Shown one piece after another: positions 985 to 59,115 of a DNA stretch of 64,000 bases; the stretch's first letter is position 1; each line of letters opens with the position of its first letter. The stretch lies in UHGV virus genome UHGV-0382128; one strand, 5' to 3'. The notes under the pieces were generated by a model. That model did no database searches. It saw nothing but the letters and a program-made list of their open reading frames with translations, and was not told where the DNA came from. The translations under genes were made by a program, and so were the position numbers. The stretch is from a virus.

Positions 985-3501
985 TTAACCCTTGATTTTC
1001 AGATACTGGTTCAGCTGAACTTCACCATTCAGATACCGCTCGTTAACGCGATCCAAAAACGCGAACCCGAGTTCGTTAACTTCCACGGTTTGGTATTTCA
1101 CATGCGGATGGAGCTTGACAAACGCTTTATCGTAACCGATGTACGCGGGGTCGAACGGAAGCAGGTCTTTATACCGCTCCATAATCTCATCCAACTGTGT
1201 TGTTGAAATACGATAATCTGGATCGTCTTCCACGAGGGTGAGAACACCCTGTAAGTAGTCCCACAGGATTTTATTCAACGTAGGTGAATAAAGGTGATAC
1301 AAGTGCGGCAAAGGCACCGGGTTCTGTGGAGGCGGTGTCGGGAACCAGTTAGTCATGTAATTTTCTACACGACTATCCAGATCACGAGCTACGTCCCTGA
1401 GCGCATACGTGTTCCCCGTTACCAGCGTACGCAACGGTATTGTAGGGTCATCGACAGAATAGGGATAACCGTCATCAACAATATTGACACCCACAGTGTT
1501 GTCTTCGCGGAACACTACCTCATCGCGTAATAGCAGGGAACCGCCAGCAACGACACGAATAACTTTGTCGTCACGACAATCAAATTGGTTGTTATTTGAT
1601 AACAGCCCACTCGAGACGAATCCGTGTTTCGGAATACGAAGTTCGCCGGTGACCCCACGACAACGCACCGCGATGTGGTTCTCATCGGAATCACTCATCC
1701 ACGCTTTACAGACCACAACGATTTCTGGCCAAATGACGTGATAATCGATACCGTGTACCAGAGGGTGTCCGTTTAACCACACTTCAACAGTTTCCATCGG
1801 AATCCACAGCGTGCGTTGATTACCTTCTTGGTTTCGGGCCAGAATAGGAATACGAATCTCCCCTTCTCTGACTGCTACATCGATTTCGAAATACAGATGG
1901 CGATCGTCGTAAATCACCGTAGGGTGACGACGAGTACGGTCCACAGTCCAGGTAATGCTATTACCTTCACGGGTGTAATCCGTCCCTTCTACTGCCTTCA
2001 GATATTCGTCTCGTGGAATGTCATCGATAACCTTACGTAACCACAAGTTAACGTTTTGGCCTTCCTGAATCTCGAAATCGGCGGCGTTATCAACGATAGT
2101 TACTGTCTCGGCTTTATCGCCTTCAATCGCCTCGATAATTCTGGTGTTGGGGTTGCGTGCTTGGTATACGTCGTAACCACGGTTTTGATGTGCCTCTAAC
2201 AGCAAACCATCGCCATCATACTCGTACACAGTCGAGTTGGTTGCCAATAACGCAGGTAAGGTAGCGCGGTACCCTCCTTCCGTTAACGTAAGACGCTGAG
2301 GGGTATCGGCGGCATAACGGCTTACGGCGTTGTAACCGTAGGCATCAGTACACAAATCGCGCGTAATATTCTCAAGCTTAGCTGCTGCCAATCGGTTAAA
2401 AGCAGCTTGTTCCAGATTAGCAGCCTGCCACTCTGTTACGTTCGCATTCGCACCAATCATCGCGTCGATTATCAGGTCATCTGATAATCGGTATAAATCG
2501 TGGATGTGTGATGAGTTAAACAACGGTGTAATATCCAGATAATCGTCGCGGATAATCAGCCTGATGATCAGATCGTCCAGGTCGGTGATTGAGCCACTAA
2601 AAACGTTGCGATATTTTGCAATACGTTCAGTCGGGATTGATAAATCGTTCCATGTTAGCTGACGCAGTGCCTGGTGGCGGTGCCGATGGTAATAACGTCC
2701 CCGGCCTTTCCAGTAAAGCTGGATTTCCGCATCGTTGTTAAAAATCCAGATGCCATCTTTTTTCGGAATATGGAGCAAGTATTTTCGTTTACTATCCAGT
2801 TTGGACATAAACGTTTGTAAGTCGCCGCAGCGAAACTCTACAACACGACGAACGCGACCATCGACGCGGATGTCGATATCGTCCCACGTTTTAATATCCG
2901 CAGGCTTTGGAGAATCAACCAGTTCTCCGTTTAACCAGAACTCAACGTACCCTTTGTTTTGTTGTTTCAGGTAATTAAACCGATCGATGACCTTTTGGAC
3001 CTGTTCACGATTCGGCGGTGAATAAAACTCGACGGTCGTCGGGTTGATGTACGGTGCGTTTTCACCCCCGTTGTAACCAGGATAAATTCGCAGGTAACAA
3101 GGGTCGTTGTCCAACCAGGCATACCGATCGGATTGCGGAATAGCCATGTAAACCATTCCCGCACTGTTACGGTAGAAATAAACGTATTCGGAAGGAATTG
3201 TCGTTCCGTTTTCGTTATAGACCTGAATCCAGGTGCTAAAACCGTTTACGCAAGTGGACAGTTTCTTCCAACGGTTTAGGGGGATAGCAAGATTCCCCCA
3301 GTTTACGTGAAGTTTATCCACCGCGTAGGCGTGCCACCACGAATTCTCTTTCGGTAAAGCGACCGGAATCCGACCGTGTTTGAAAAAGCCGATCGCCCCG
3401 GTCTTGGGTGAAAGACGGAAGGGTGCGATGTTGAGCACCCCGTCAAGATATGGACGCTGCCACGCTTTTTGGATGGCGTGGGCGACCAGCCAGTTCTCCA
3501 T
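985..3501 (-). CDS. Hypothetical large protein (838 aa), probably virion structural (tail/baseplate-like)
   Basis: Long uninterrupted ORF in a minus-strand block divergent from the sheath/tube-like operon; no recognisable catalytic motif. Confidence 0.55.
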   Translation of the reverse strand: MENWLVAHAIQKAWQRPYLDGVLNIAPFRLSPKTGAIGFFKHGRIPVALPKENSWWHAYAVDKLHVNWGNLAIPLNRWKKLSTCVNGFSTWIQVYNENGTTIPSEYVYFYRNSAGMVYMAIPQSDRYAWLDNDPCYLRIYPGYNGGENAPYINPTTVEFYSPPNREQVQKVIDRFNYLKQQNKGYVEFWLNGELVDSPKPADIKTWDDIDIRVDGRVRRVVEFRCGDLQTFMSKLDSKRKYLLHIPKKDGIWIFNNDAEIQLYWKGRGRYYHRHRHQALRQLTWNDLSIPTERIAKYRNVFSGSITDLDDLIIRLIIRDDYLDITPLFNSSHIHDLYRLSDDLIIDAMIGANANVTEWQAANLEQAAFNRLAAAKLENITRDLCTDAYGYNAVSRYAADTPQRLTLTEGGYRATLPALLATNSTVYEYDGDGLLLEAHQNRGYDVYQARNPNTRIIEAIEGDKAETVTIVDNAADFEIQEGQNVNLWLRKVIDDIPRDEYLKAVEGTDYTREGNSITWTVDRTRRHPTVIYDDRHLYFEIDVAVREGEIRIPILARNQEGNQRTLWIPMETVEVWLNGHPLVHGIDYHVIWPEIVVVCKAWMSDSDENHIAVRCRGVTGELRIPKHGFVSSGLLSNNNQFDCRDDKVIRVVAGGSLLLRDEVVFREDNTVGVNIVDDGYPYSVDDPTIPLRTLVTGNTYALRDVARDLDSRVENYMTNWFPTPPPQNPVPLPHLYHLYSPTLNKILWDYLQGVLTLVEDDPDYRISTTQLDEIMERYKDLLPFDPAYIGYDKAFVKLHPHVKYQTVEVNELGFAFLDRVNERYLNGEVQLNQYLKIKG

Positions 3502-3511
3502 AGTGGACCTC

Positions 3512-4420
3512 TTACTGGTTGTTTATCGGTTTGGTGTTTTGGTTAAGTAATGTGTCGTATGCCATGATAAAAGCGTCTTTACGTTTTGCCACGTCACATT
3601 TCTTAATTAGCCCACCTAAACGGGAGCGGTTAAATATCACGTTCTCTAAGCATGTGCGGGTAATAACAAAGAGAGACGGTGGATATTCGATGGCGCTGGT
3701 AACAAGTTGACGATCGTAGCTAATAAAGCTACCCAGGCTCGTTGCCAGCATACCTTGCAAACTTACTACGCTGAGATCTTTTAAGCGTGCGGTAATGTCT
3801 GCAGCTTTTACCATCTCGACAAATTCACCGATATTGCGTGGGAACAGGAACTCTGTGTTTCCGGTAACAGTTTCAAAAATCTGTGGTCCGAGGCGAAGTT
3901 CACGTTCTAACTGTTGCTGCATTCTTAACATTTTAACTTCATCTTCGAAGTTGTTGTAGAACTGTCCTACGGAGAACAGGGCAGCGAGTGCCTTGACTTG
4001 ACCACTTTGATATGGAGCAAGTGCGTAGGTGTGTTCAATTGCATCGCTAATCCACCTGCTGAAGATCTCATGGTGATAAGACATACGTGACATTAATGCA
4101 CCGAGCTTATCATTGTTCCGTTTCCACACTAATTCCCAACGTGCTTCGTCGAGACGTAATTGGTGCTCAATGGGGTTACGGATTTTCAGTACGCCGTTTT
4201 TATCGAGCGTAGTGAAAGTTCGTGCGTCAACGTACACGTCATCACCGATGACGATCGGTAACGGGAACGGTTTTACATCGGCGGTTTCGATAACGTAATG
4301 TACTTCGTCAGACTGTGCAACGGTCTGATTGACTTTACGCGCCAGTTCCAAATCCGCGTGTAAGCGGGTAAGGTCTATGGTATTAAACGGAGTACCGTTG
4401 TAAGCGTTTTTGAGTGCCAT
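3512..4420 (-). CDS. Hypothetical protein (302 aa)
   Basis: ORF with ATG start, 62-bp divergent spacer to the 4483 gene; function unknown. Confidence 0.55.
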   Translation of the reverse strand: MALKNAYNGTPFNTIDLTRLHADLELARKVNQTVAQSDEVHYVIETADVKPFPLPIVIGDDVYVDARTFTTLDKNGVLKIRNPIEHQLRLDEARWELVWKRNNDKLGALMSRMSYHHEIFSRWISDAIEHTYALAPYQSGQVKALAALFSVGQFYNNFEDEVKMLRMQQQLERELRLGPQIFETVTGNTEFLFPRNIGEFVEMVKAADITARLKDLSVVSLQGMLATSLGSFISYDRQLVTSAIEYPPSLFVITRTCLENVIFNRSRLGGLIKKCDVAKRKDAFIMAYDTLLNQNTKPINNQ

Positions 4421-4482
4421 GAGTATGATACCTTAGTATGACCCTTTTTCAAGGTCTTAAAGACTGAATATGGAGACGTTCC

Positions 4483-6540
4483 ATGAGTTTTATTCCACGA
4501 AACGGCGCGCCATTGAATAACAAGCAAGGGTGGCAGGATAACTCTGTCCCTGAGCTTGTCCGGACCCCCACGGGTGATCCGATTCATAAGCCGCTGATCT
4601 TCACCTTTGCATCACGCGGGGTAGACGACGAGGCGTTCCCGTTATCCGGGGATAATGCATTGTCTCTGCTTGGTCGTGATTTGTTCGACCTGCGTGGCGA
4701 TTACGCGACGTTCAACACACCCTTCCAGGCGATGTTTAATGGCAATGGTAACGAGTGTATGTATCAGCGTCTGGTGCCGGACGATGCGAAAGTCGCAGCT
4801 GTCCGTCTGGTGGCTGACGTCCTCGAAACCAAAGTTCCTTCATACGAGCGTGTGAACGGCATTATCCAGTATGAAACTAACGGTAAGCCGAAGAAGAAAG
4901 AAGACGTTGATGGCTTGAAAGTGGTTTTCCGTCTGCAAGTTGTCGAAGATGTAAGCACCCTGAAAAAAGGTGTGGTTACTGAAGGGACAATGACCGACGA
5001 AACCACGAGCGCGAAATCAAAGCTCTATCCGATCTTCGACATTAAAGGCCCGTACGCGGGTGCTGATGTCAACGGTTTCGGTTTTAAACTGGTTCCGCTG
5101 AACGAAAAATCCAGCCCATCTATCGCGTCTGCTTATCAGACCAACGTAGGTGGACGTATGTACGCACTGCAATGGTTTGAAACCTTAGCAGGGGTTACAT
5201 CGCCGGTAATTTGGAAGACCCTTAAAGGTCTTAGCAGCATCAATGTTAGCTTCAAGCCCGATGCATACTATCAGCCGATGGCTACTCAACTGGACTTCGA
5301 AGTCGTTGTTCCAGATGCCTATCGTCAGACGATGCCAGACATCGGTGGTCTGCCGGACTACGGTCCTTTCGAAGAGTTCTACATTTACCGTGAAAACCTG
5401 GAAACTGTTCTGAAACTGGCACAGTCTAAAATTCAGAATGCGAAACCAGCGATCACCGATCCGTATATGGTCGATATCTTCGGCGGCCTGGATTTAACCG
5501 GTCAAATGTACGATGGTCTGCAAGTTAGCCCATCTGATGAAGTGGGTAAAGTTGTCTTTTCTGCTTCTAACATTCACTATCTGCAGGGCGGTAGTGACGG
5601 GACGATGGGTAATGATGCTTACGACAAACTCGTGCGTCGTGAGATGAGTCAGTTCCCGGACGGCGGTAAAGTCCGTTACGATAACGAACTGAAATATTCG
5701 TTAGGCTGCTTCTGGGACTCCGGTTTTAGCATGGATACCAAGAAAGTGCTGACCAATTTCATTGGTCGTTCTCGTAACACGTTCTTGACACTCTGTACTC
5801 ACGTTTATAACGAAGGTCGTAATGACTTACAAACCGAAGAGAACGTGAAGACAGCGCTGATCGAAATGATTACGTCCGTGCCTGAATCGTCCTATTACGG
5901 TACCCCAGCGTGCCGTGGGATGATTACTGGCCAGTCTGCGTTCATCCGTAACTCGAGCTACAAGAAACCGGTTCCGATGTGTTATAGCATTGCGAACTTC
6001 TTCTCGAAGTATCTCGGTTCCGGTGAAGGACGTGCAAAACCGGCGTATCGTTTCAGCCGTGGTGAAGAGACGATCATCGAAGATCTGTACGATCTGAGTA
6101 TGCCGTGGAAAGGTAACGAGATTTACGCGTCCGACTGGGATGTGTCCCTGGTTACCGCACGTTCCCGCGACTACTATCGTTTGTTCATCCCAGCTATCCA
6201 GTCCATCTATAGCGAAGAACGTTCAGTGCTGAACAATGCACTGTTTAACTTTATCCTGACTTACGTTTATCGTGTCAGCGATCAGGTTTGGGCAGATATG
6301 TCCGGTGAAAGCCGTATGACGGACGACGAACGCGCGAAAATGATTGAAAACAAAATCACCGAGCGTTTGGAAGGTCGCCTGGATAATATTGCCGACATTA
6401 CCCCGAGTGCGTATATGACAGCGGACGATAAAGCCAACGGCTACTCTATCACGCTGGACATTAAAGCTGAAGGCGGTGTACTGTTGTCGCAGTTCAACAC
6501 GACGATCAAAGTTTATCGTCGCAACAGTACGGAGGTCTAA
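4483..6540 (+). CDS. Highly expressed structural protein (685 aa); candidate tail sheath
   Basis: Strong bias to E. coli high-expression codons (ctg, cgt, ggt, ccg, aaa, gaa), SD ggagacg upstream, followed 3 nt later by a ~290-aa ORF and a strong terminator. Size and sheath-then-tube order fit a contractile tail; identity not verifiable by eye. Confidence 0.4.
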   Translation: MSFIPRNGAPLNNKQGWQDNSVPELVRTPTGDPIHKPLIFTFASRGVDDEAFPLSGDNALSLLGRDLFDLRGDYATFNTPFQAMFNGNGNECMYQRLVPDDAKVAAVRLVADVLETKVPSYERVNGIIQYETNGKPKKKEDVDGLKVVFRLQVVEDVSTLKKGVVTEGTMTDETTSAKSKLYPIFDIKGPYAGADVNGFGFKLVPLNEKSSPSIASAYQTNVGGRMYALQWFETLAGVTSPVIWKTLKGLSSINVSFKPDAYYQPMATQLDFEVVVPDAYRQTMPDIGGLPDYGPFEEFYIYRENLETVLKLAQSKIQNAKPAITDPYMVDIFGGLDLTGQMYDGLQVSPSDEVGKVVFSASNIHYLQGGSDGTMGNDAYDKLVRREMSQFPDGGKVRYDNELKYSLGCFWDSGFSMDTKKVLTNFIGRSRNTFLTLCTHVYNEGRNDLQTEENVKTALIEMITSVPESSYYGTPACRGMITGQSAFIRNSSYKKPVPMCYSIANFFSKYLGSGEGRAKPAYRFSRGEETIIEDLYDLSMPWKGNEIYASDWDVSLVTARSRDYYRLFIPAIQSIYSEERSVLNNALFNFILTYVYRVSDQVWADMSGESRMTDDERAKMIENKITERLEGRLDNIADITPSAYMTADDKANGYSITLDIKAEGGVLLSQFNTTIKVYRRNSTEV

Positions 6541-6543
6541 TAG

Positions 6544-7419
6544 ATGTCTATCAAAGAACGCATGATTTTACCTGACCAGGGCCTCCACGTCGATGGTGGC
6601 CAGTACGATATGGTTAACCCCTTCTCGTCTGGTCAAAACGGTCCGGTCGGTCAGGTTGGTAAGTTCGTTACCAACGCCCACCGTCTGCGTCGTAACGTAA
6701 TCGCACGTGTGATGGAATTCCCTCGTTGGGTTGATTACATGCCGAACCCACAACTGTGGCGTCAGGCAATCAAATCGTTCATCGAGGTTCACACCACGAT
6801 TACCGGTTTGGACAAATCCCTGAGTGCTGAGTACGTACAGACCCAGCAGGGACGTAACAACCGCGTTCAGTACGAAGCTGGACTGGTAACGGAAGCACTG
6901 TCTTCTGTTACACACACTACCCCGGATAAACTGGGTAAAGTGTATCAGAACATGCTCTGGGCGTGGCTGGTTTACGGTGTTTGTGATCCGCACACAGGCC
7001 ACCCTGGTCTGGCGGCAATCAACCCGAACGTGCCGGATCACCTGCCGGATATGTACAGCATGACCGTACTGTATTTCGAACCGGATGCGTATCAGCGTAA
7101 ACCGCAGAACGCTTGGTGGCTGACGAACATGGCTCCTGAATCTAACGGTCAGGATATCGGTGAACGTGACCCGAACACCGGTCCTCAGACCAACGAACTG
7201 TCCATCACCTTCACCTCCCAGCAATGGACAGGTTGGGGTCCGATGCAGGCAGCTCAGAAAGAACTGGAGCGCATGAAGCTTTACGGTCTGCGTCCTTACG
7301 AACGCAAACTGTGGCTTACTCCGTCTCAACAGACCAACGGTATCAACCCAGACGTCGATGCTACGGCTGGCGGTTATCGTTCTGTGTCCGACGAGCAGAT
7401 GGCAAATCAGCTTCGTTAA
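6544..7419 (+). CDS. Highly expressed structural protein (291 aa); candidate tail tube
   Basis: Same codon bias as the upstream gene, 3-nt spacing, terminated by the hairpin at 7436..7462. Confidence 0.35.
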   Translation: MSIKERMILPDQGLHVDGGQYDMVNPFSSGQNGPVGQVGKFVTNAHRLRRNVIARVMEFPRWVDYMPNPQLWRQAIKSFIEVHTTITGLDKSLSAEYVQTQQGRNNRVQYEAGLVTEALSSVTHTTPDKLGKVYQNMLWAWLVYGVCDPHTGHPGLAAINPNVPDHLPDMYSMTVLYFEPDAYQRKPQNAWWLTNMAPESNGQDIGERDPNTGPQTNELSITFTSQQWTGWGPMQAAQKELERMKLYGLRPYERKLWLTPSQQTNGINPDVDATAGGYRSVSDEQMANQLR

Positions 7420-7476
7420 GCAAAAAAAATAAGTTTACCTACCTCCGTCAAGGAGGTAGGTAGCTTTTATTTTTCT
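7420..7476. terminator. Bidirectional rho-independent terminator
   Basis: A-run 7422-7429, stem tacctacctcc / ggaggtaggta with loop gtcaa (7436-7462), T-run gcttttatttttc; lies between convergent genes. Confidence 0.8.
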
Positions 7477-8024
7477 TCTTGCGCCAGATGTTTACGGGCA
7501 GAAGAACGAATAATTAAGTTTTTCATCTGCATTAACAGCAGGAACGTAGAGAGTAAATCGAACGTGGTGGGTGGTGTGTTGGTGGTGTCGCTAGGATAAG
7601 CAACACGCCACAGTGTTAGTTCTGTGTCGCCATTTCCTTTTTCGTTACGTATAATTTCGTTGTTGTGCAAGCTAACCAATTCAGATTCTAACGCTTCTAA
7701 TACATCTTCACCGAACTCAATCCGTAAGAGTTGTTTGAAACGGATAACGTAACCGGCGACGACATTACCGACAGAACTGCTACGTATTTCGGTTAAGAAA
7801 CGCTGGTAGCCGTTGATAGTGTGTGGGATCGTTTCAGCAGGCCAGCCCGCGATGTGTGGAAACGCATCACCTAAAGTGGCTTGCATAGACAACGTAAAGA
7901 TTTCACCGATCTGGTTAAGATGACTAATGACTTCTGTACGGTTCATGACGTTAGGAAGCGGTACGGGCCGTTCTGTATTCGGCTTTTCTTGAGCCATGGG
8001 ATAACCATCGAATAAGTTTTGCAT
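7467..8024 (-). CDS. Hypothetical protein (~185 aa; start revised to the second Met)
   Basis: Track ORF 7467..8063; the first ATG lies inside the upstream terminator hairpin, while the ATG at 8024..8022 is preceded by SD aggaga (MQNLFDGYPMAQEK...). Confidence 0.5.
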   Translation of the reverse strand: MQNLFDGYPMAQEKPNTERPVPLPNVMNRTEVISHLNQIGEIFTLSMQATLGDAFPHIAGWPAETIPHTINGYQRFLTEIRSSSVGNVVAGYVIRFKQLLRIEFGEDVLEALESELVSLHNNEIIRNEKGNGDTELTLWRVAYPSDTTNTPPTTFDLLSTFLLLMQMKNLIIRSSARKHLAQEEK

Positions 8025-8043
8025 TGTTTTATCTCCTGAAATC

Positions 8044-8088
8044 AAAAAAAATAAGGCGGTCATAAGACCGCCCTAGATTTTATTTTCT
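8044..8088. terminator. Rho-independent terminator (hairpin ggcggtc/gaccgcc flanked by A-run and T-run)
   Basis: A8 run 8044-8051, 7-bp GC stem 8055-8072, then ctagattttattttc. Confidence 0.65.
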
Positions 8089-8190
8089 CCGCCGGTGGCT
8101 CAGGTAAACCAGACCATCAATCGGTCTAGGTGGCCCTGGCTTCCGAGAAAGAGGTTGTTGCCATTTCGTAGGATTGATTTTCTCTTCAGG

Positions 8191-8216
8191 AACAAAAGCC
8201 CGATATAGTCGGGCTC
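8191..8216 (-). terminator. Probable minus-strand terminator hairpin
   Basis: Stem agcccga / tcgggct with A-rich 5' flank on plus (T-run on minus), immediately after the stop of the 8234..8716 gene. Confidence 0.45.
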
Positions 8217-8233
8217 CTGAAATAATACCGATC

Positions 8234-8716
8234 TTATTCGTCTTCTTCGTCATCGCCCGCCATCATCGCATCGGCAAACACTTTGCGCATTTTCCCTTCC
8301 AGCTCTTTTGACTTAGGTACACCGTAACCAAAGCCGATAGAAGCTGCCCATTCAGACGCCCCTACTGTTTCCCCAGTTGGACGTGAGAACACCGTAGAGA
8401 ACGACGCGTTACCAATATTCGTGGTAAGGTCCAGTGCGACCAGTTCGTCGTCTGCTTTCGCTTTCTCAACGATAAGTTCTGACGCAACCTTACCGTAGAC
8501 TTCCAGGAAGTTTGCATCGTGTTGGCGAACCGCATCCGCATCCTGTAGCGTCAGACGATAATCGGTGTCGTTCACTTTGATGACCGGAAGTGATTCTTCG
8601 TAGATTTTGATTAACGGGTCTGCGTTAAGTACCGCGCTTTCGTCCAGAGTCATTGCCGGAGTTTCCAGCGCATCGATCATTGCAGCCAGTTCTTTAGTAG
8701 ACATTACTTGTGCCAT
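8234..8716 (-). CDS. Hypothetical protein with acidic C-terminal tail (160 aa)
   Basis: ORF ending ...MMAGDDEEDE; function unknown. Confidence 0.55.
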   Translation of the reverse strand: MAQVMSTKELAAMIDALETPAMTLDESAVLNADPLIKIYEESLPVIKVNDTDYRLTLQDADAVRQHDANFLEVYGKVASELIVEKAKADDELVALDLTTNIGNASFSTVFSRPTGETVGASEWAASIGFGYGVPKSKELEGKMRKVFADAMMAGDDEEDE

Positions 8717-8735
8717 TTGATTTATTCCTTAAGGT

Positions 8736-9407
8736 TTACTGTTGTTGAAGACGGCTTTCTAAGCCAGTGATGATTTCGTCGGTGAAATACGCTAAGTCGA
8801 GCATTTCAACGTACTCTTGGCGTTCCAAGATTTCTTTCGCAAACAATGCGTTATACCAATCAGGAACACGAGATTTACCATTACGACCGAACTTATTTTG
8901 CACGTGACTGATTGCATGGAATTTTGAATCAGTAACAGATTTTCCATGGTCTCGTGCGTATAAGTAAGAGCGGTGCATGTAATTTTTAACTTCCTCGACG
9001 GTAGGGATGCCGCGATCGGCGGCAGCGACAATTTCAGAAACAATGGAATTATAACCACCTTTGTGGGAACTCCGATGTTCTAATACTGCATACGCTACCT
9101 CGGTCACATCGTCGGAACTAAGTTTAAAACGCCGCTTGAGTATAGGTGCAGAATCAAGCACGTAATTGAATGCCTTGATGTGGTGTGAAGCACGGTCAGC
9201 AGGTGTGGAGAAAATATCGTGCGCAGCCACGGCAACCAGAACATTCTTTAGGTGTTGCGTTTCATTCAACAGGTAAGCGATACGAACAGCGTTCGACTTC
9301 ACAGAAAGAATGTGGTCTAGTCGATGCGCGCTATCGGTATAGCGATAGAAATCGCGGAAGTGGCTAAGTACACGTTCCCAGAATTTATTAATTTCAGTAG
9401 CTTCCAT
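8736..9407 (-). CDS. Putative HD-domain phosphohydrolase (223 aa)
   Basis: His/Asp metal-binding pattern ...LVAVAAHDIFS...SHH...AVLEHR... typical of the HD superfamily; assignment by motif only. Confidence 0.45.
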   Translation of the reverse strand: MEATEINKFWERVLSHFRDFYRYTDSAHRLDHILSVKSNAVRIAYLLNETQHLKNVLVAVAAHDIFSTPADRASHHIKAFNYVLDSAPILKRRFKLSSDDVTEVAYAVLEHRSSHKGGYNSIVSEIVAAADRGIPTVEEVKNYMHRSYLYARDHGKSVTDSKFHAISHVQNKFGRNGKSRVPDWYNALFAKEILERQEYVEMLDLAYFTDEIITGLESRLQQQ

Positions 9408-13541: not shown

Positions 13542-15002
13542 TTAAAGTTTGTCGACAAATACTGAACCTGCGATCCAGTTCAGTACATAGTCAATCATCC
13601 AACTGGTTGCGGCTTCTGCCGGGTCGGTGTTCTCAATCATTGCTGTATGAATCGTACGCATCAGCGGATCAATTTCGTAGGCGCAGAATACGGAGTTACA
13701 TGCAGTCCGGATGATAAACAACGTAATGTCTTCGTCTGCGTTGACAAAGAAATCATCACAAATACCCATAACAACCTGCTTGACTTCTTCGCGAGTACGC
13801 GTCAGTTCGCCAACAGTCAGGTAGCCCTGGTCGAGTTGGTCGATTGCAATCGAGAACGCTGTTTTCAACGCCTGGCGGTTACGGCTTACCCAGTCGAGTT
13901 CGTTTCGTTTCTGAACGATAATCGCACGACGATTGTAAGCTTCAACGTAGGCTTTCTGGTTTTCCAGCAGAGATGCGACACGTGCGGAAACGTTATAGTC
14001 GCCTTCGTCCATCAGGTAAATGGCACCCAACAGGGCTTCAACGATGCCGCCTTTTTCCAGGTAGTCGTCCATCGTTTCCTGACAGATATAGACGTTTTTC
14101 TCGTTGGTATCGTAAGAGTAAACGATGTTACCTGTGGCGACACGGTTAGCCACCGCTTTTTCGAAACCGTATACCCAACCGATAGACGTGTAGTACGCAC
14201 GACCCATTTCCGCTTTCCATTTCAGGGCGTCAACACCTGAGTCAGGCCATGGACGTTCAATGAAGAACGAAGACAACAGCAGTACCAGAACACGTTCTTT
14301 TACCATCTCCGGTGCTTTATCTGCAACAGGTACGGTGTAGTTACCTGCCAGCAGCAGTTTTGCTGCATCGTACATGCTGAGATTCAGGTCGTTCAGTAAT
14401 TTACGCACCAGCTCATCGTACGCTTTCACACCTGTTTCCGGAATCTCGATGTCGGTCGGTACATCGAACTTGATCGGGTCGTAAGTCGTACCGTTACCCA
14501 CCGGGTTGGCGATTTCTTGAATCAGCGCCTGGACAACTGGGGAATCCACACACGGATCGATACCTACTGGAATCAGGTTCCAGTCTTCAACCAATGGTTT
14601 GACATCCTCAATCGTGTTATTCTGGATAACCAACTGCACAAACGGTTGAACAACGTTACGGGCAAAGTCTAGCATCCCGTTACAACGCTGAATGGCCATG
14701 TTCTTCAGTTCGAATAGCGTGGTTTCGTGATCGTCAACACGCAGTGCTTCAACTTCAACAGCGCCGTCACGAATAATCGAAGCTTCTGCCGTACCGTCTA
14801 CAGGACGTTTAAGCTGCGTAATCGCAGGCAGTTCCTGGAAGAACTGTTCGTCGGTGATTGTGGTATCGAAAACGCGCGTAGGGTCGACCGCACGGTTGAG
14901 TAAATCAACCGGAGAGTCAACGTCTGTGCCAAGCTGAACATTATGCTGTTTGCACAGTTTCATGGCGTTAGTAACCGCATTCAGCGAGTATAAACTGATC
15001 AT
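13542..15002 (-). CDS. Hypothetical protein (486 aa)
   Basis: ORF; 4-nt overlap with the upstream 97-aa gene suggests coupling. Confidence 0.55.
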   Translation of the reverse strand: MISLYSLNAVTNAMKLCKQHNVQLGTDVDSPVDLLNRAVDPTRVFDTTITDEQFFQELPAITQLKRPVDGTAEASIIRDGAVEVEALRVDDHETTLFELKNMAIQRCNGMLDFARNVVQPFVQLVIQNNTIEDVKPLVEDWNLIPVGIDPCVDSPVVQALIQEIANPVGNGTTYDPIKFDVPTDIEIPETGVKAYDELVRKLLNDLNLSMYDAAKLLLAGNYTVPVADKAPEMVKERVLVLLLSSFFIERPWPDSGVDALKWKAEMGRAYYTSIGWVYGFEKAVANRVATGNIVYSYDTNEKNVYICQETMDDYLEKGGIVEALLGAIYLMDEGDYNVSARVASLLENQKAYVEAYNRRAIIVQKRNELDWVSRNRQALKTAFSIAIDQLDQGYLTVGELTRTREEVKQVVMGICDDFFVNADEDITLFIIRTACNSVFCAYEIDPLMRTIHTAMIENTDPAEAATSWMIDYVLNWIAGSVFVDKL

Positions 15003-19515: not shown

Positions 19516-21135
19516 TTATGGGTTCTTTAATAACGCTTGCGTTGCACGTTTAATCACGTTGTTGATAGGATTGATTTTAAAGTTCCCATCAGAATCGAAC
19601 CAGTAGTTTTTCGAGTGTATCCAGTTCCGGTTTTCCTCGAGCGCTTCCTGGGACATAGGCGCGTTAAACGACCCGGTATCGCCATCGTAGTCACCCCCTA
19701 ACCCACCTAGGCGTGAAGGGTGTGGTGCCATAGACTCAACGAAGGTAGGAACCGACCGGTCAGGGTAGCTGATAGCCCCTCGGGGTTTTTCAGTTTCCCA
19801 GTCATCTTCCAGTTCTTTTAAATATAAAGATGACGTGGTGGTCTCCAATCTTATGGTCGATGAATACGTCGAGCCTCGGCCTGTAACGGGATAACGTGTA
19901 ACGAAACCGAAATAATCGTTCCAAAGTTCGTAGCCCGACAAATAAAGCAATTCGACGAGTGTCATACCGTGAACGAATTTTCGGTCAAACGTTTTAGGAA
20001 GTTCTTCAATATCGTAGAACACCTTAAAATGTTTGGTGTCTTGGTAAACCAACGCAACGTAGTGGGTGTCGTCCAACATAATCGGTTGATGGCGAAGCTC
20101 GCGAGCTTCCATTCGGTTGATTAAGGATTCAATCCCATCGTCGGTGGTAAAGGTGTCGTATACACGACCACCTACTTCCAAGAATTCACGTTTAAGGGTT
20201 TTGGTGTTTACGCCGTAAAGGTTGCCATCGCCAGCACGGATGTTACCGAGGTAACGTTCGCGTATCTGGTACTGCGCAACGGGGAGTAATGCTTTTAAAC
20301 CCTGGTATAAACCAATTTTGGTGTCGGTGGGACGAATAGCGTCTTCACGACCCATGCATTTAGACCCCGTCGAGAACGAGGACAGTACGTTACGTGTCCC
20401 GTTCATTAACTTACGAGACGTCACTTTACGACGTTGGAAACCCCCTTTACCGTCCTGGATGTTAAAGAAATACATCCAGATATCATTGAAGGTTTGTTGA
20501 AGTTTCCAGCGTACGGGGTTAGTTAACTCGACACGGGTTGCCCGGTCAGGGATCGCCCTGGCGAGAGATACCAACCGACGATACATCCCGCCGATTTCTT
20601 CTTCTTGCTCTCTACCATCTTGTCGAATTACTAAATCGCGTAAACCCGCGGGTAACACGAGAACGTATCGACTAAGACTAACGGGACGGAATTTCAAAAA
20701 GAAATCCACGGTTTCGTCACGTTGTAGAGACTCGTTACGCTTAGGTTTTAAATCGTTATAGTGACTGAGGAAGAAGTTAAAACCGGTATCTGCGCCTGGG
20801 TCTCCCGGCAAGGCCGGTTCGAAATCTTTTTCTTTTTCGCTCCAGGTTGCGTAGCGTTTTCCAGAACAAATTTCTTCGTAGAGTTGTTTGAGTTGGAATA
20901 ACGCCAAACACACTGTCGGCGAAATGATATCGAGCTTAATATCGATATAAGAGAATGTAGAGTCTCGCGCTTCACTACCCGTGAGTCCAAAAATCTCTGT
21001 AGAGTAAAGACCTTCGGGGTGAAAGTTTTTTGTTAACCCCTGGAAAGTATCCGTGGTCGTGACGGGTCGTAATCGCGACACAAGAGACTTGTTTACATTG
21101 AGCAGATAAAAGTCAACCCAATTAAGTTTATTCAC
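19516..21135 (-). CDS. Multisubunit RNA polymerase beta-prime-like subunit, N-terminal fragment (539 aa)
   Basis: GKGGFQRRKVTSRKLMNGTRNV resembles beta-prime [22 protein letters not shown]; C-terminal GGDYDGDTGS matches the NADFDGD Mg-binding motif; ORF ends ~50 aa after it. Confidence 0.65.
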   Translation of the reverse strand: MNKLNWVDFYLLNVNKSLVSRLRPVTTTDTFQGLTKNFHPEGLYSTEIFGLTGSEARDSTFSYIDIKLDIISPTVCLALFQLKQLYEEICSGKRYATWSEKEKDFEPALPGDPGADTGFNFFLSHYNDLKPKRNESLQRDETVDFFLKFRPVSLSRYVLVLPAGLRDLVIRQDGREQEEEIGGMYRRLVSLARAIPDRATRVELTNPVRWKLQQTFNDIWMYFFNIQDGKGGFQRRKVTSRKLMNGTRNVLSSFSTGSKCMGREDAIRPTDTKIGLYQGLKALLPVAQYQIRERYLGNIRAGDGNLYGVNTKTLKREFLEVGGRVYDTFTTDDGIESLINRMEARELRHQPIMLDDTHYVALVYQDTKHFKVFYDIEELPKTFDRKFVHGMTLVELLYLSGYELWNDYFGFVTRYPVTGRGSTYSSTIRLETTTSSLYLKELEDDWETEKPRGAISYPDRSVPTFVESMAPHPSRLGGLGGDYDGDTGSFNAPMSQEALEENRNWIHSKNYWFDSDGNFKINPINNVIKRATQALLKNP

Positions 21136-31087: not shown

Positions 31088-31152
31088 AAAAAGAAAAAAA
31101 ATAAGAAAGTTAACCTACCTCCGAAGGGAGGTAGGTGCTTTTATTTATTTCG
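31088..31152. terminator. Bidirectional rho-independent terminator
   Basis: A-run, stem cctacctcc / ggaggtagg with loop gaag (31114-31135), then tgcttttatttatttc; between convergent genes. Confidence 0.8.
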
Positions 31153-33413: not shown

Positions 33414-34448
33414 TTAGACAGCTATGGGAGCTTTAATTGTGTCGTGTGATTGATACCCAACCAATTCGAAGTCTTCGTATTTGTAATCGAAGATGGAATC
33501 AGGTTTACGTTTGATAACCAGTTTAGGTAGCGGGTAAGGTTCGCGAGTAAGTTGTAGTTTTGCCTGCTCCAGATGGTTAGAATACAGATGAACGTCTACA
33601 CCACTATAAACCAACTCGTCTGGAACCATGTTCAACTGCTGTGCAATCATGTGAGTTAACAACGCGTACGAAGCGACGTTAAATGGCGCGCCGAGTAGGT
33701 AATCGTTGCTCCGCATCATGTAAAAACATGAAAGCTTCCGACGTGGAATGTCCTCACGATCTAAAATTTCATGAAGTCGCTCTTCATCATCAATATCTTC
33801 GTGATTAATAAGCGGTGCGCTCGCAAATTTTTCCGGTTCGTTTACTTCGTACCAATCCAGTCGTTCAAGCAACGTCATTTCCGTTGTGTAGAATTGGAAA
33901 TAGTTGTGGCATGGGTTAAGTGCCATATCGTCCAGGTCACCTACATTCCAGGCACTAACAATAATACGACGGGAGTCAGGGTCTTCACGAAGTTGCTGGA
34001 TAACTTTACTGATCTGGTCATGTGCTTTTTCATAGACCAAATACGTCGTACCGTCTTCCTTCATATTCCCAATATACTTGTAACCCCGCTGCATTAGTTG
34101 TTGTGTACGTCTTACGTCATGACACTCCACAACTTTACAGTCGCGCCATTCACGCCATTGTTTACCATAAACTGGTCCTAAGTTCCCCTCTTCATCACTC
34201 CATTCGTTCCAAATTTTTACCCCGTTCTCTTGCAGGTACTTCACGTTAGTGTCACCATTTAAGAACCACAGCAGTTCATGAATGATACTTTTCAGGTGAA
34301 CCTTTTTCGTAGTAACTAATGGGAAACCTTCTTTTAGGTCGAAACGTAGTTGGCGACCAAATACAGAAAGTGTCCCTACGCCTGTACGGTCTTTCTTGAC
34401 AACACCGTTATCTAGAATGTCTTGCATTAACGCTAAATACTGTTTCAT
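33414..34448 (-). CDS. thyA: Thymidylate synthase (344 aa) with two insertions
   Basis: Near-identical blocks to E. coli ThyA (MKQYL.LMQ..L..G....[53 protein letters not shown]). Two in-frame insertions of roughly 33 and 46 aa. Confidence 0.9.
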
Positions 34449-36544: not shown

Positions 36545-36585
36545 AAAAAATGAAAATACCCTACTCCTGTCTAGGAGTAGGGTAG
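36545..36585 (-). terminator. Rho-independent terminator (CCCTACTCC family)
   Basis: Stem accctactcc / ggagtagggt, loop tgtcta; T-run on minus strand, then SD and the next start. Confidence 0.7.
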
Positions 36586-36588
36586 GTA

Positions 36589-37248
36589 TTACATACGGGT
36601 AACTGAATCCCAGTAATCGCGAAGATATTCTTGATCTTCAGGATCTTTCGGTGTAGCCGGAATGTGGCCGTCAAACTCAAACGGAATTACAGACAGAACA
36701 TCCGCAATCTCGTAACGCTCGACTTCCAGTTCAACTTTCACCCAGTCACCGACGCTGGTACTACTACGCATCTCGGTGAGGAGATCGTTAAAGTCAGCCG
36801 AAACTTCAATTGCAGGGTGTCCGGTGGTGATAGTGAAAATATCAATATCCCAATGCTTAGCGCCTTTATCGGCTAATTCACCCGGTTCTAAGTGGATACG
36901 TTTCACCAGGTGAGCCAAATAACCGTCCTTGTAAAAAGAGAGTGCAGAACTAATACCGATATCCGAATTCTCTTCAACCTTTCCGTCCAGGAATTTACGC
37001 TTAAGCGTTAGCTGTGCTGTACCGTCTTCTTTAATACGGATACGACGACGCCCACCTTCTATCGGCATGAGAATGTCCATGAACATCTTAGTGGACTGTG
37101 CGTGTAGCCAATCCCATCCCGCTTGCGTGGGTTTTACCCAAACGCAATATTCCTTTTCCACTTCACGTTTAATGGATTCGCCTGCAACGCGAATAACTTC
37201 TTCTTCCTGCGCTTTTTCCAATTGCGCAAGGGTATCGAATAATCCCAT
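36589..37248 (-). CDS. Hypothetical protein (219 aa)
   Basis: ORF only. Confidence 0.5.
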   Translation of the reverse strand: MGLFDTLAQLEKAQEEEVIRVAGESIKREVEKEYCVWVKPTQAGWDWLHAQSTKMFMDILMPIEGGRRRIRIKEDGTAQLTLKRKFLDGKVEENSDIGISSALSFYKDGYLAHLVKRIHLEPGELADKGAKHWDIDIFTITTGHPAIEVSADFNDLLTEMRSSTSVGDWVKVELEVERYEIADVLSVIPFEFDGHIPATPKDPEDQEYLRDYWDSVTRM

Positions 37249-45605: not shown

Positions 45606-45655
45606 AAAAGTAAAGCTACCCCTAGACCACACGGTCTAGGGGTAAACTATTTATT
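45606..45655. terminator. Bidirectional rho-independent terminator
   Basis: Stem cccctagacc / ggtctagggg (45619-45642) flanked by A-run and T-rich tract; between convergent genes. Confidence 0.75.
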
Positions 45656-55785: not shown

Positions 55786-56409
55786 ATGGCTACGCGTTTA
55801 CCACTCCAGGTACCAGTCAACACCACGGGACTGTTTAAAGTAAAAACACCATTTACTTTGGCCGAGACCGTCATTTATACGGTAGAAGCGTCACGTACCT
55901 TCCCAGATTTAGTACGTCAGAATATTGACGTTTATAACTCGTATTACCAGCCAGTAGGGCTAGGACGTGAAGAATATTTAGCAGATGCGAATGTTAGCGC
56001 GTCGATTCTGACATTTAAATCTCGTGATGGTCAAGTTGTATACATACCTGACACCTACCTGGAATCATACCCAGGTTTATCCGGGATCACGTATCAACGA
56101 AATGTGTTAGTGGTAGATTTGGCACTGGTACCGGATTACGTGAAAGTGTCGTCTATAACAAAAGACGTTTCAGATATTCTCACGCATACACTAGGGATTG
56201 AGCCGAAAGTTGAAATTACAACGCTCGAGTATGAGGGGAAGGTAACGGAGGAACAACACTTGCAGATGGAAGCGGCACGAAAAAATAAAATTCGTGAATC
56301 TATTCCATTAGGTGAGAAAGTTGCTGCGTTGACAGAAGAGAACAAAAAATTAAAAGAGTTAAACAACCAAATGTTAGAGATTCTTAAAGCTAACGGGTTA
56401 GTTAACTAA
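55786..56409 (+). CDS. Hypothetical protein (207 aa) with C-terminal coiled-coil-like segment
   Basis: ORF 3 nt after the upstream gene; ends at a terminator. Confidence 0.5.
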   Translation: MATRLPLQVPVNTTGLFKVKTPFTLAETVIYTVEASRTFPDLVRQNIDVYNSYYQPVGLGREEYLADANVSASILTFKSRDGQVVYIPDTYLESYPGLSGITYQRNVLVVDLALVPDYVKVSSITKDVSDILTHTLGIEPKVEITTLEYEGKVTEEQHLQMEAARKNKIRESIPLGEKVAALTEENKKLKELNNQMLEILKANGLVN

Positions 56410-56455
56410 AAAAGATTACCCTACTCCTTCGGGAGTAGGGTAGCTTTTATTTTAA
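56410..56455. terminator. Bidirectional rho-independent terminator (CCCTACTCC family)
   Basis: Stem taccctactcc / ggagtagggta, loop ttcg, then gcttttatttt; between convergent genes. Confidence 0.8.
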
Positions 56456-58547: not shown

Positions 58548-58590
58548 TCCTTTAGGGAATGAAAATAAAAGTACCCCTTACTCCGTATAG
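58548..58590 (-). terminator. Rho-independent terminator
   Basis: Stem accccttac / gtaaggggt (~11 bp), T-run on minus, then SD aaggag. Confidence 0.7.
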
Positions 58591-58605
58591 GGTAAGGGGT
58601 AGAGG

Positions 58606-59115
58606 TTAGAAGAACGGCTGGTTTGGAATGACAGCGTACTCTAAAATGAACATGTGTTCTGGGGCGTCTTCTTTACGCCAGACTTTGTGTGTCGACACAA
58701 GTTTTTCCAGAATCGTTAAGAAACTGCGCTGGCAGTATGTGTTTTCACCAAGCAGTAGATTTTGAAGTTCTACAGTAGCGTCCATATACGCCTGTTTAAA
58801 GACTAAATTACGGTTATACTGCCCGGTAAAATTCCAAAGCAAGACTTTCCCTTCTTCGGTTTCTTTTACCGTTGGTCGTAAACCACAAATCCACAGTAAG
58901 GCAAGGTTGACGTTCCAGTCAAACTCTAAACCTTCTTCTTCGTCATCACCGAATGCTGTGGGTAAAGCATCGTAAAATTCGTGTTTCTCTGCGAATTCTT
59001 CATCCGACTTAATCTCGTCTTCGATACTGCTTCGGACGATACTGTAAACGTCTTTCGCGGTCAATTGTGCGGCTTTTGTAATGCCTTTATACCAATCGGT
59101 TACTACGATGCTCAA
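58606..59115 (-). CDS. Hypothetical protein (169 aa)
   Basis: ORF overlapping the SLT gene by 4 nt. Confidence 0.45.
   Translation of the reverse strand: MSIVVTDWYKGITKAAQLTAKDVYSIVRSSIEDEIKSDEEFAEKHEFYDALPTAFGDDEEEGLEFDWNVNLALLWICGLRPTVKETEEGKVLLWNFTGQYNRNLVFKQAYMDATVELQNLLLGENTYCQRSFLTILEKLVSTHKVWRKEDAPEHMFILEYAVIPNQPFF

What the first reader, a model, noticed from the sequence alone, without database searches (positions are those of the whole stretch)
4483..7476. Codon-optimised two-gene operon with strong terminator: candidate tail sheath and tube
Both ORFs are dominated by E. coli major codons (ctg, cgt, ggt, ccg, acc, gaa, aaa), visibly more so than neighbouring genes. They are 3 nt apart and are closed by one of the strongest terminators in the window. 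A ~685-aa protein followed by a ~290-aa protein fits the sheath-tube order of contractile tails, but major capsid or phage-nucleus shell protein cannot be excluded by eye.
Basis: partly seen in the sequence, partly recalled or inferred. Interest (0 to 1): 0.5.

Follow-up and report, generated by a model that had tools for sequence, protein, structure and literature searches.

The report
Jumbo-phage tail sheath and tube genes

Summary
ORFs 4483-6540 (685 aa) and 6544-7419 (291 aa) lie 3 nt apart on the + strand. A 12-bp hairpin at 7435-7463, flanked by A8 and a T-run, follows them. E. coli CAI is 0.563 for ORF2 (rank 1 of 63 ORFs) and 0.436 for ORF1 (rank 4), against a window mean of 0.29. With amino-acid composition held fixed, z is +12 and +9.

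ORF1 matches PHROG 'tail sheath' (5e-282) and Pfam phiKZ_gp29PR. It also matches the solved sheath chains of phiKp24, Goslar and phiKZ gp29 over nearly its full length. ORF2 matches Pfam Phage_TTP_14 (1e-92) and the Goslar and phiKZ gp30 tube chains. They are 81% and 89% identical to SPN3US gp256 (sheath) and gp255 (tube). Both SPN3US proteins are virion proteins, and a gp255 amber mutant makes tailless heads. No capsid or chimallin match appeared.

The terminator is bidirectional. Ten lineages keep its structure while the stem sequence changes. The promoter, probably a phiKZ-type TATG start site read by the phage RNA polymerase, is only inferred.

The window comes from a roughly 222-228 kb Chimalliviridae phage common in gut metagenomes and enterobacterial assemblies, probably the recently proposed 'Bapsvirus'. 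Already known; low interest.

The parts
4421..4482 (.). 62-nt divergent intergenic spacer between the gp28-like vertex-binding protein gene (minus strand, ATG at 4420) and the sheath gene. It carries all the conserved upstream elements listed below.
   Evidence: Sequence. Alignment of five relatives and listing of ten lineages show invariant blocks separated by variable, indel-bearing spacers.
4431..4443 (+). Block CCTTAGTATGACC, invariant in ten lineages. It contains a TATG (4437-4440) that is one candidate phiKZ-type late start site, with G4440 as +1 and a 43-nt leader. Its reverse complement also supplies the AAGG ribosome-binding site of the minus-strand gene.
   Evidence: unique in the window at 0 mismatches. 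phiKZ has CTAGTATGGTC in the equivalent gp28/gp29 spacer. The TATG late-promoter rule comes from PMC4666361. The function here is inferred.
4454..4464 (.). Palindrome GTCTT-A-AAGAC. It is kept with a 1-2 nt centre in 8 of the 10 lineages and is degenerate in Phobos and EarlPhillipIV. The centre is too small for an RNA hairpin, so it may be a DNA-binding site. Function unknown.
   Evidence: 1 match in the window against 0.24 expected; 20 of 100 shuffles have at least 1.
4469..4475 (+). TATGGAG. This is a second candidate TATG start site (G4472 as +1, 11-nt leader) fused to the sheath gene's Shine-Dalgarno GGAG (4472-4475), 7 nt before the ATG.
   Evidence: TATGGAGA is invariant in ten lineages. 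The motif is not enriched in the window as a whole, so promoter function is inferred only.
4483..6540 (+). Tail sheath gene (685 aa), orthologue of SPN3US gp256, phiKZ gp29 and Goslar gp218.
6531..6535 (+). Shine-Dalgarno GGAGG of the tube gene, embedded in the 3' end of the sheath gene. The sheath stop is TAA 6538-6540, followed by a 3-nt gap.
   Evidence: The arrangement (GGAG-type site in or next to the last sheath codons, gap of 3-6 nt) is kept in ten lineages.
6544..7419 (+). Major tail tube gene (291 aa), orthologue of SPN3US gp255, phiKZ gp30 and Goslar gp217.
   Evidence: This exact protein is on record on hundreds of contigs.
7422..7474 (.). Bidirectional intrinsic terminator. It consists of A8 (7422-7429), stem TACCTACCTCC (7436-7446), loop GTCAA, stem GGAGGTAGGTA (7452-7462), and T-run 7465-7474. 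The T-run overlaps the stop codon of the convergent gene 7467..8063.
   Evidence: The structure is kept with changed stem sequences in ten lineages.

Best explanation
The two ORFs encode the contractile tail sheath (4483-6540) and the major inner tail tube (6544-7419) of a phiKZ-like (Chimalliviridae) jumbo phage of Enterobacteriaceae.

By homology with the solved phiKp24, Goslar and phiKZ tails, hexameric rings of the tube protein stack on the baseplate's tube initiator. Each protomer threads its C-terminal extension into the layers above. Rings of sheath protein polymerise around the tube in the same helical symmetry, interlocked through their terminal extensions and C-terminal domains. On host binding the sheath contracts and drives the tube through the envelope. 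A tail needs roughly 260-280 copies of each protein.

That demand explains three features. The genes are adjacent. The tube's ribosome-binding site sits inside the sheath's last codons, which suggests co-transcription and possibly coupled translation. Both genes carry the strongest host-adapted codon usage in the window.

Transcription most likely starts in the 62-nt divergent spacer at one of two invariant TATG motifs. By analogy with phiKZ these would be read by the phage's own non-virion RNA polymerase late in infection. Transcription ends at a bidirectional hairpin terminator shared with the convergent downstream gene.

Shown here: the identity of both proteins, the gene layout, the codon bias, and conservation of the hairpin. 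Inferred: the promoter, the timing, translational coupling, and actual termination.
For: Identity of the proteins:
- Pfam PF20961 phiKZ_gp29PR, 1e-71 (ORF1 residues 142-373), and PF23806 Phage_TTP_14, 1e-92 (ORF2 residues 4-290 of 291).
- PHROG 3242 'tail sheath', 5e-282, and PHROG 3185, 2e-124.
- PDB sheath chains: 8au1 (phiKp24 gp118) 2.8e-75, Goslar 1e-64, phiKZ gp29 (9xpf_A) 9.8e-57. The alignments cover residues ~8-682 of 685.
- PDB tube chains: Goslar 9.9e-35, phiKZ gp30 1.1e-22, phiKp24 gp119 7.5e-19.
- 81% and 89% identity to SPN3US gp256 and gp255.
- In SPN3US, gp256 is the sheath with 686 spectra in virions. gp255 is the major tube, and the mutant 255(am107) makes heads without tails (PMC5105663, PMC10052503).

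Context:
- Synteny is identical from SPN3US and phiEaH2 down to phiKZ: gp27-like and gp28-like genes diverge from sheath then tube.
- The window also holds split virion-RNAP beta subunits, the prohead protease and a 2374-aa tape-measure protein with an SLT domain.

Expression features:
- Codon bias. It is conserved in orthologues of five other genera (sheath CAI 0.44-0.50, tube 0.46-0.60).
- Terminator: all ten lineages keep an 8-12 bp uninterrupted stem of -19 to -29 kcal/mol, with 2-3 different pair types at stem positions 3-7 counted from the loop. All keep the A-run and T-run.
- Promoter: the TATG motifs are invariant in ten lineages. phiKZ nvRNAP starts at the G of TATG (PMC4666361, PMC12809450).
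Against: Nothing argues against the protein identities.

The expression model is weaker. TATG is only 4 nt long. TATGGRG is not enriched in the window (11 found against 8.8 expected). No transcript data exist for this lineage. Invariance of TATGGAGA could be due to the ribosome-binding site alone, and invariance of CCTTAGTATGACC could be due to the ribosome-binding site of the opposite gene. A sigma-70 scan found no good + strand promoter in the spacer. That fits phage-RNAP transcription but does not prove it.

Some GenBank records (Proteus phage 7, MET_P1_082_240) label the orthologues 'tail connector' and 'baseplate wedge'. PHROGs files the tube family under 'head and packaging'. I regard these as annotation errors.
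Confidence: 0.97

Rival explanations
1. ORF2 is not the major tube protein. It would instead be a tube-like paralogue, such as the tube initiator that caps the tube at the baseplate (as Goslar gp62 relates to gp217), or a baseplate wedge protein as some GenBank records annotate it.
For: Two phage records label the orthologue 'baseplate wedge protein'. The Goslar preprint notes that the tube initiator gp62 is homologous to the tube protein, so such paralogues exist in this family.
Against: The best PDB match is the chain deposited as 'Tail Tube of Bacteriophage Goslar' (303 chains in 5 entries, which means the repeated major subunit), followed by phiKZ gp30. ORF2 is 89% identical to SPN3US gp255, which the literature calls the major tail tube protein and whose loss abolishes tails (PMC10052503). 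It has the highest CAI in the window and sits directly after the sheath gene. Both points fit a protein made in hundreds of copies.
Confidence: 0.02
2. ORF1 is a major capsid protein or the chimallin phage-nucleus shell protein. These were the first reader's fall-back readings.
For: Only size and high expression signals. Both alternative proteins are abundant in phiKZ-like phages.
Against: ORF1 gave no HK97-capsid or chimallin family hit in Pfam at E<=1, in PHROGs at E<=0.01 or in PDB at E<=0.01. It is colinear over nearly its full length with three solved sheath proteins. In SPN3US the capsid protein is gp75, which is a different locus (PMC5105663).
Confidence: 0.005
3. The codon bias is not translational selection for high expression. 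It would instead be a compositional footprint (the two genes are 49-53% GC against 45.6% for the window) left by horizontal acquisition of the sheath-tube cassette.
For: GC and GC3 are higher in these genes than the window average: GC3 is 0.55 and 0.58, against 0.26-0.54 in the other 61 ORFs.
Against: The enriched codons include T-ending CGT and GGT, not only G/C-ending ones. The same elevated CAI is seen in orthologues from Seoulvirus, Erskinevirus, Machinavirus, Derbicusvirus and Wellingtonvirus, so it is ancient and maintained. Another virion protein gene elsewhere in the window, the gp243 homologue 13542..15002, shows the same bias (z = +9.2). Synteny extends to phiKZ, which argues against recent transfer.
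Confidence: 0.05

Closest known systems
Salmonella phage SPN3US gp256 (tail sheath) and gp255 (major tail tube), genus Seoulvirus
   Same: 81% and 89% amino-acid identity over the full length. The 3-nt gap, divergent upstream gene, convergent downstream gene and hairpin terminator are all the same. Function is shown by virion mass spectrometry and an amber mutant (PMC5105663, PMC10052503).
   Different: About 79% nucleotide identity at this locus. Only 33% of the first 25 kb of the window aligns at the DNA level, at 75.5% identity. The terminator stem sequence differs (ACCTCTCTCC vs ACCTACCTCC). The intergenic spacer is 5 nt shorter. The relatives of the window's phage have genomes of about 222-228 kb, against 240 kb for SPN3US.
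Pseudomonas phage phiKZ gp29 (sheath; PDB 3SPE, 3J0H, 9XPF) and gp30 (tube; 9XPF)
   Same: Founding members of the same protein families (Pfam phiKZ_gp29PR and Phage_TTP_14). The gene order gp28 < > gp29 gp30 is the same. A TAGTATG motif lies in the divergent spacer.
   Different: Only about 25% identity for the sheath. The sheath-tube gap is 31 nt rather than 3. A small extra ORF (gp30.1) follows the tube gene, and its terminator is followed by a gene on the same strand. The host is different.
E. coli phage Goslar gp218/gp217 and Klebsiella phage phiKp24 gp118/gp119 (cryo-EM tails)
   Same: These are the best solved-structure matches. They supply the mechanistic model. The sheath has an outer gp29PR-like domain plus a central domain with N- and C-terminal extensions that tie rings together. 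[quoted passage not shown]
   Different: The relationship is distant (E-values 1e-35 to 1e-75, not near-identity). These phages differ in genome size and in baseplate and fibre apparatus.
T4 gp18/gp19 and other contractile injection systems (general class)
   Same: The same machine logic applies: a rigid tube inside a contractile sheath with shared helical symmetry. This rests on established knowledge and on the statements in the cited structure papers.
   Different: No T4 or other non-phiKZ-type sheath or tube chain appeared in the Pfam, PHROG or PDB hit lists at the thresholds used. I ran no direct comparison with T4 gp18 or gp19. Membership is in the phiKZ-type subfamily only.

Membership tests
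phiKZ-type contractile tail sheath (Pfam PF20961-containing; PHROG 3242) | Outer, protease-resistant gp29PR domain | tested here: met
   PF20961 scores 241.5 bits (cut-off 26), E 1e-71. Residues 142-373 cover profile positions 1-231 of 231.
phiKZ-type contractile tail sheath (Pfam PF20961-containing; PHROG 3242) | Full-length colinear homology to proteins modelled as the sheath in cryo-EM tails | tested here: met
   8au1 (phiKp24): residues 14-661 vs 14-664, 2.8e-75. Goslar: 8-682 vs 6-684, 1e-64. phiKZ 9xpf_A: 15-673 vs 13-681, 9.8e-57. PHROG 3242: 1-683 vs 1-689 of 692.
phiKZ-type contractile tail sheath (Pfam PF20961-containing; PHROG 3242) | N- and C-terminal extensions that interlock subunits of adjacent rings | tested here: inconclusive
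   The sequence alignments reach both termini, and phiKp24 places the extensions at M1-S21 and A667-G689 (PMC9700779). No structure was predicted here, so their conformation is not shown.
phiKZ-type contractile tail sheath (Pfam PF20961-containing; PHROG 3242) | Gene immediately upstream of the tube gene | tested here: met
   3-nt gap. The same order holds in ten relatives and in phiKZ.
phiKZ-type contractile tail sheath (Pfam PF20961-containing; PHROG 3242) | Abundant virion (tail) component that contracts | not testable with these tools
   Known only for orthologues: SPN3US gp256 gave 686 spectra in virions (PMC5105663).
phiKZ-type major tail tube (Pfam PF23806 Phage_TTP_14) | Full-length match to the family profile above the curated cut-off | tested here: met
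   310.9 bits (cut-off 27), E 1.2e-92. Residues 4-290 vs profile 5-288 of 292.
phiKZ-type major tail tube (Pfam PF23806 Phage_TTP_14) | Homology to the repeated tube subunit of solved tails rather than to a single-ring paralogue | tested here: met
   Goslar 'Tail Tube' chain (303 chains in 5 entries) 9.9e-35. phiKZ gp30 1.1e-22. phiKp24 gp119 7.5e-19. 89% identity to SPN3US gp255.
phiKZ-type major tail tube (Pfam PF23806 Phage_TTP_14) | Required for tail formation | not testable with these tools
   Shown for the orthologue: SPN3US 255(am107) yields tailless heads (PMC10052503).
   No such family appears among the Pfam (E<=1), PHROG (E<=0.01) or PDB (E<=0.01) hits for either ORF.
Intrinsic (factor-independent) bidirectional terminator | G+C-rich hairpin followed by a T-run on each strand, placed between convergent genes | tested here: met
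   12 pairs with 6 G-C, A8 upstream and a T-run downstream. Energy -22.4 kcal/mol. The hairpin is kept in ten lineages with different stem sequences.
Intrinsic (factor-independent) bidirectional terminator | Transcripts actually end there | not testable with these tools
   This needs 3'-end mapping. It is also not known here whether the phage RNA polymerases obey such signals in this lineage.
phiKZ-type late promoter (nvRNAP) | 5'-TATG-3' with the G as start site, upstream of a late gene | tested here: inconclusive
   Two + strand TATGs (4437-4440 and 4469-4472) are invariant in ten lineages, and a similar TAGTATG lies upstream of phiKZ gp29. The motif is only 4 nt and is not enriched in the window. 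Yakunina et al. showed that TATG is necessary but not sufficient (PMC4666361).
Proposed genus 'Bapsvirus' (Chimalliviridae; PMC12768965) | Genomes of about 220-249 kb found in Salmonella, E. coli and Shigella assemblies, syntenic with Seoulvirus but with limited nucleotide similarity to it | tested here: inconclusive
   Contigs carrying the identical tube protein are 222-228 kb and come from such assemblies and from gut metagenomes. Nucleotide identity to SPN3US is about 75% over 33% of the first 25 kb, and synteny is kept. No named Bapsvirus reference sequence was available for a direct comparison.

The most novel reading that the evidence does not exclude
The 62-nt divergent spacer upstream of the sheath gene may be more than a plain promoter. 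It holds three elements: the block CCTTAGTATGACC, a GACC-N4-9-GGTC inverted repeat, and the palindrome GTCTT-N1-2-AAGAC, which is too tight to fold as RNA. The first two are invariant in all ten lineages sampled across five named genera. The palindrome is kept in eight and is degenerate in the two Derbicusvirus phages. Together they could be a dedicated regulatory switch, for example the binding site of a dimeric phage factor. Such a factor could time or balance the divergent head-vertex (gp28-like) and tail (sheath/tube) transcripts on top of the minimal TATG start signal. [quoted passage not shown]
Probability: 0.12. Interest if true: 0.35.

Novelty: already known. Interest (0 to 1): 0.08.

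Why it matters
It matters little as a discovery. The sheath and tube families of phiKZ-like phages have Pfam models, several cryo-EM structures and genetic proof in SPN3US. The phage lineage itself appears to have been described in 2025 as a genus found in bacterial assemblies.

There are two practical points. First, the public copies of these genes nearest to this window are annotated 'hypothetical protein', for example on two roughly 222-kb circular records filed as plasmids. Some phage records mislabel them as 'tail connector' and 'baseplate wedge'. This analysis gives a firm annotation that can be transferred. Second, the result is a clean positive control for reading expression level and function from raw sequence: codon bias, tight gene spacing and a strong terminator correctly flagged the two most abundant tail proteins.

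Tried and rejected
1. A sigma-70 promoter scan of 3500-9000 found fewer sites than shuffles give (4 vs 6.2) and none usable on the + strand in the spacer. It is not informative, as expected for a phage that uses its own RNA polymerases.

2. I tested whether the upstream motifs recur in the window. CCTTAGTATGACC (up to 3 mismatches), GTCTT-N1-3-AAGAC and TATGGRG showed no enrichment. They are therefore local elements rather than a general promoter consensus. Two other ORFs have TATGG(A/G)G at -15 (33414..34448 and 36589..37248), which is too few to build on.

3. The MAFFT/RNAalifold run on the terminators put the hairpins out of register and under-counted covariation. I replaced it by folding each sequence and counting pairs from the loop outward.

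4. I suspected the virion-RNAP beta-N gene was interrupted, because my ATG-only ORF caller gave 356 aa against 538 aa in SPN3US. It simply starts with GTG at 21135. The suspicion is rejected.

5. I wondered whether the other high-CAI ORF (13542..15002) was chimallin. It has no Pfam or PDB hit. It is the homologue of SPN3US gp243, an essential head protein. Rejected.

6. The exact-sequence look-up of the sheath protein found no gene on record. The tube look-up worked.

7. I tried to find an experimentally mapped phiKZ start site upstream of gp29. No supplement is held for PMC10914365 and Ceyssens et al. 2014 is not in the library. This question stays unresolved.

8. I judged structure prediction and the large homology searches unnecessary and did not run them.
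Full report
**1. The observation**

The junction reads ...ACGGAGGTC TAA TAG ATG.... The gap is therefore 3 nt, and the second gene's Shine-Dalgarno sequence (GGAGG, 6531-6535) lies within the last codons of the first gene. The first gene has GGAG 7 nt before its ATG.

Downstream, the consensus scan finds a 12-pair hairpin at 7435-7463 followed by CTTTTATTTTT. The mirror-image site lies on the minus strand.

**2. Is the codon bias real?**

- The 291-aa ORF ranks first, with CAI 0.563.
- The 685-aa ORF ranks fourth, with CAI 0.436.
- The window mean is 0.292 (sd 0.077), and the immediate neighbours score 0.28-0.34.

I then kept each amino-acid sequence fixed and redrew synonymous codons from the usage of the rest of the window. 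The observed values lie 9.2 and 12.3 standard deviations above expectation (0 of 5000 draws). CTG, CGT, GGT, CCG and ACC are enriched. T-ending CGT and GGT rise as well, so the bias is not merely higher GC3. Orthologues from five other genera show the same elevated CAI.

**3. Is the terminator strong?**

I scanned the whole window for hairpins ending at a T-run. This one (-22.4 kcal/mol) ranks about seventh, 2.1 kcal/mol from the strongest. It lies between the tube stop codon (7417-7419) and the stop codon of the convergent ORF 7467..8063. It is flanked by A8 on one side and a T-run on the other, so it should work in both directions.

Ten lineages were compared: the window, two 'plasmid' records, SPN3US, phiEaH2, Caitlin, Machina, Phobos, Kwan and EarlPhillipIV. 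All keep an uninterrupted 8-12 bp stem (-19 to -29 kcal/mol) with the A-run and T-run. The stem sequence changes between them (ACCTACCTCC, ACCTCTCTCC, CCTCACTCC, ACCCACTCC, CCGACCCC, ACCCCACTC). Stem positions 3-7 counted from the loop each show two or three different pair types. That pattern is expected for a selected RNA hairpin.

**4. What the proteins are**

ORF1:
- It matches PHROG 3242 'tail sheath' over its full length (5e-282).
- It matches Pfam phiKZ_gp29PR, the protease-resistant outer sheath domain of phiKZ gp29 (1e-71).
- Against solved structures it aligns end to end with the sheath chains of Klebsiella phage phiKp24 (8au1, 2.8e-75), Goslar (1e-64) and phiKZ (9xpf_A, 9.8e-57) (8au1 identified through PMC9700779).

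ORF2:
- It matches Pfam Phage_TTP_14 'phage tail tube protein' (1.2e-92).
- It matches the tube chains of Goslar (9.9e-35), phiKZ gp30 (1.1e-22) and phiKp24 gp119 (7.5e-19).

No capsid or chimallin family appears for either ORF.

At the DNA level the locus is about 79-80% identical to SPN3US and phiEaH2, where the genes are annotated tail sheath and virion structural protein. The proteins are 81% and 89% identical to SPN3US gp256 and gp255. For SPN3US the functions are experimental. gp256 is the abundant sheath protein. gp255 is the major tube protein, and the amber mutant 255(am107) produces heads without tails (PMC5105663; PMC10052503).

A tblastn search shows the sheath family in 259 phage records. 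Those listed are almost all phiKZ-like jumbo phages.

**5. Context**

Upstream and divergent are homologues of the phiKZ gp28 vertex-binding protein (Pfam PhiKZ_VTX) and of a DUF7193 protein. Further along the window are an HD-domain protein homologue, the prohead protease, the gp243 homologue, two virion-RNAP beta fragments and a 2374-aa tape-measure protein with a lytic transglycosylase domain. The order equals that of SPN3US, and at the sheath locus that of phiKZ.

**6. How it works**

By homology with the solved tails, tube hexamers stack on the baseplate's tube initiator. Sheath hexamers polymerise around them with the same helical symmetry. Goslar has 47 sheath layers and 46 tube layers, and phiKZ has 44 and 43, which means roughly 260-280 copies of each protein per virion. 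Contraction of the sheath drives the tube through the envelope. This demand for near-equimolar, very abundant products explains the adjacency, the embedded ribosome-binding site and the codon usage.

How transcription starts is inferred only. The 62-nt divergent spacer has two + strand TATG motifs that are invariant in ten lineages (4437-4440 and 4469-4472). phiKZ late promoters consist of TATG with the G as start site, and that motif is recognised by the beta-like subunit of the non-virion RNA polymerase (PMC4666361; PMC12809450). phiKZ itself has CTAGTATGGTC in the equivalent spacer. However, the motif is only 4 nt and is not enriched in the window. Both conserved blocks also overlap ribosome-binding sites. 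I could not reach mapped phiKZ start sites.

**7. Where the window comes from**

The exact tube protein is on record in 886 blocks of the assembly collection. These include 222-228 kb contigs from human gut metagenomes and from Salmonella, Shigella and E. coli isolate assemblies, and they are 93-99% identical to the window at this locus.

Two circular records of about 222 kb filed as plasmids are 90% identical here, and their genes at this locus are annotated 'hypothetical protein'. They are E. coli NZ_CP173450.1 and Enterobacter ludwigii NZ_CP134650.1.

Isolated phages reach only about 75% identity over about two thirds of the first 25 kb. This fits the proposed genus 'Bapsvirus' of Chimalliviridae (about 220-249 kb; Salmonella, E. 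coli and Shigella assemblies; syntenic with Seoulvirus) described in PMC12768965. I could not compare the window with a named reference.

**8. Verdict**

The feature is the ordinary sheath-tube gene pair of a phiKZ-like jumbo phage. The family, structures and genetics are already known, so interest is low. What remains open is how these genes are transcribed and what the conserved palindromic elements in the upstream spacer do.

Noticed in passing
window 7435-7463, 31102-31143, 36554-36595, 45606-45654, 56408-56452, 58569-58610: Several of the strongest terminator-like hairpins in the window resemble one another. The 5' arm is TACC(C)TAC(C)TCC and the 3' arm GGAG(G)TAGG(G)TA. Each is a near-perfect palindrome flanked by A- and T-runs, so each is bidirectional. 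The 3' arm contains a Shine-Dalgarno-like GGAGG. This could reflect a shared origin or a preference of the phage RNA polymerases.
   Followed up: partly
L013 and L016 vs L014 and L015, about 4900-4910 (equivalent to window 7447-7451): Among relatives 98-99% identical at this locus, the terminator loop switches between GTCAT and its reverse complement ATGAC while the stem is unchanged. This is the signature of inversion or template switching within a perfect palindrome.
   Followed up: no
window 4421-4482: The divergent spacer holds three elements: CCTTAGTATGACC, a GACC-N4-9-GGTC inverted repeat, and the palindrome GTCTT-N1-2-AAGAC, which is unique in the window. The first two are invariant in all ten lineages. 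The palindrome is kept in eight and is degenerate in Phobos and EarlPhillipIV. The minus-strand gene (gp28-like) has no TATG on its own strand in the spacer, so its promoter is unexplained.
   Followed up: partly
whole window; NZ_CP173450.1 and NZ_CP134650.1 (L002, L004); L011-L018: The window belongs to a jumbo phage of about 222-228 kb that is very common in public data. The identical tube protein occurs in 886 collection blocks, in gut metagenomes including Hadza samples, and in Salmonella, Shigella and E. coli isolate assemblies. The phage is absent from the isolated-phage collection above about 81% identity. Two complete circular copies are deposited as 'plasmids', with the genes at this locus annotated 'hypothetical protein'. 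It probably belongs to the 'Bapsvirus' genus of bacterial-assembly-associated phages (PMC12768965).
   Followed up: partly
window 13542-15002 (-) and 8234-8716 (-): Two other ORFs share the strong E. coli-type codon bias, with CAI 0.468 and 0.454. The first is the homologue of SPN3US gp243 and phiKZ gp177, an essential head protein needed to load the major ejection proteins (PMC5694885). The second (160 aa, PHROG 7952) has no known function and no Pfam hit. It lies at the position of SPN3US gp252, by synteny only. Its codon usage predicts an abundant protein.
   Followed up: partly
GenBank MT679221.1 (Proteus phage 7) and OQ383623.1 (MET_P1_082_240), orthologous locus: These records label the sheath and tube orthologues 'tail connector protein' and 'baseplate wedge protein'. 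PHROG 3185, the tube family, is filed under 'head and packaging'. Both look like annotation errors in the light of the solved structures.
   Followed up: yes
window 19516-21135 (-): The gene for the N-terminal fragment of the virion RNA polymerase beta subunit starts with GTG, as it does in SPN3US. ATG-only gene callers truncate it to 356 aa.
   Followed up: yes
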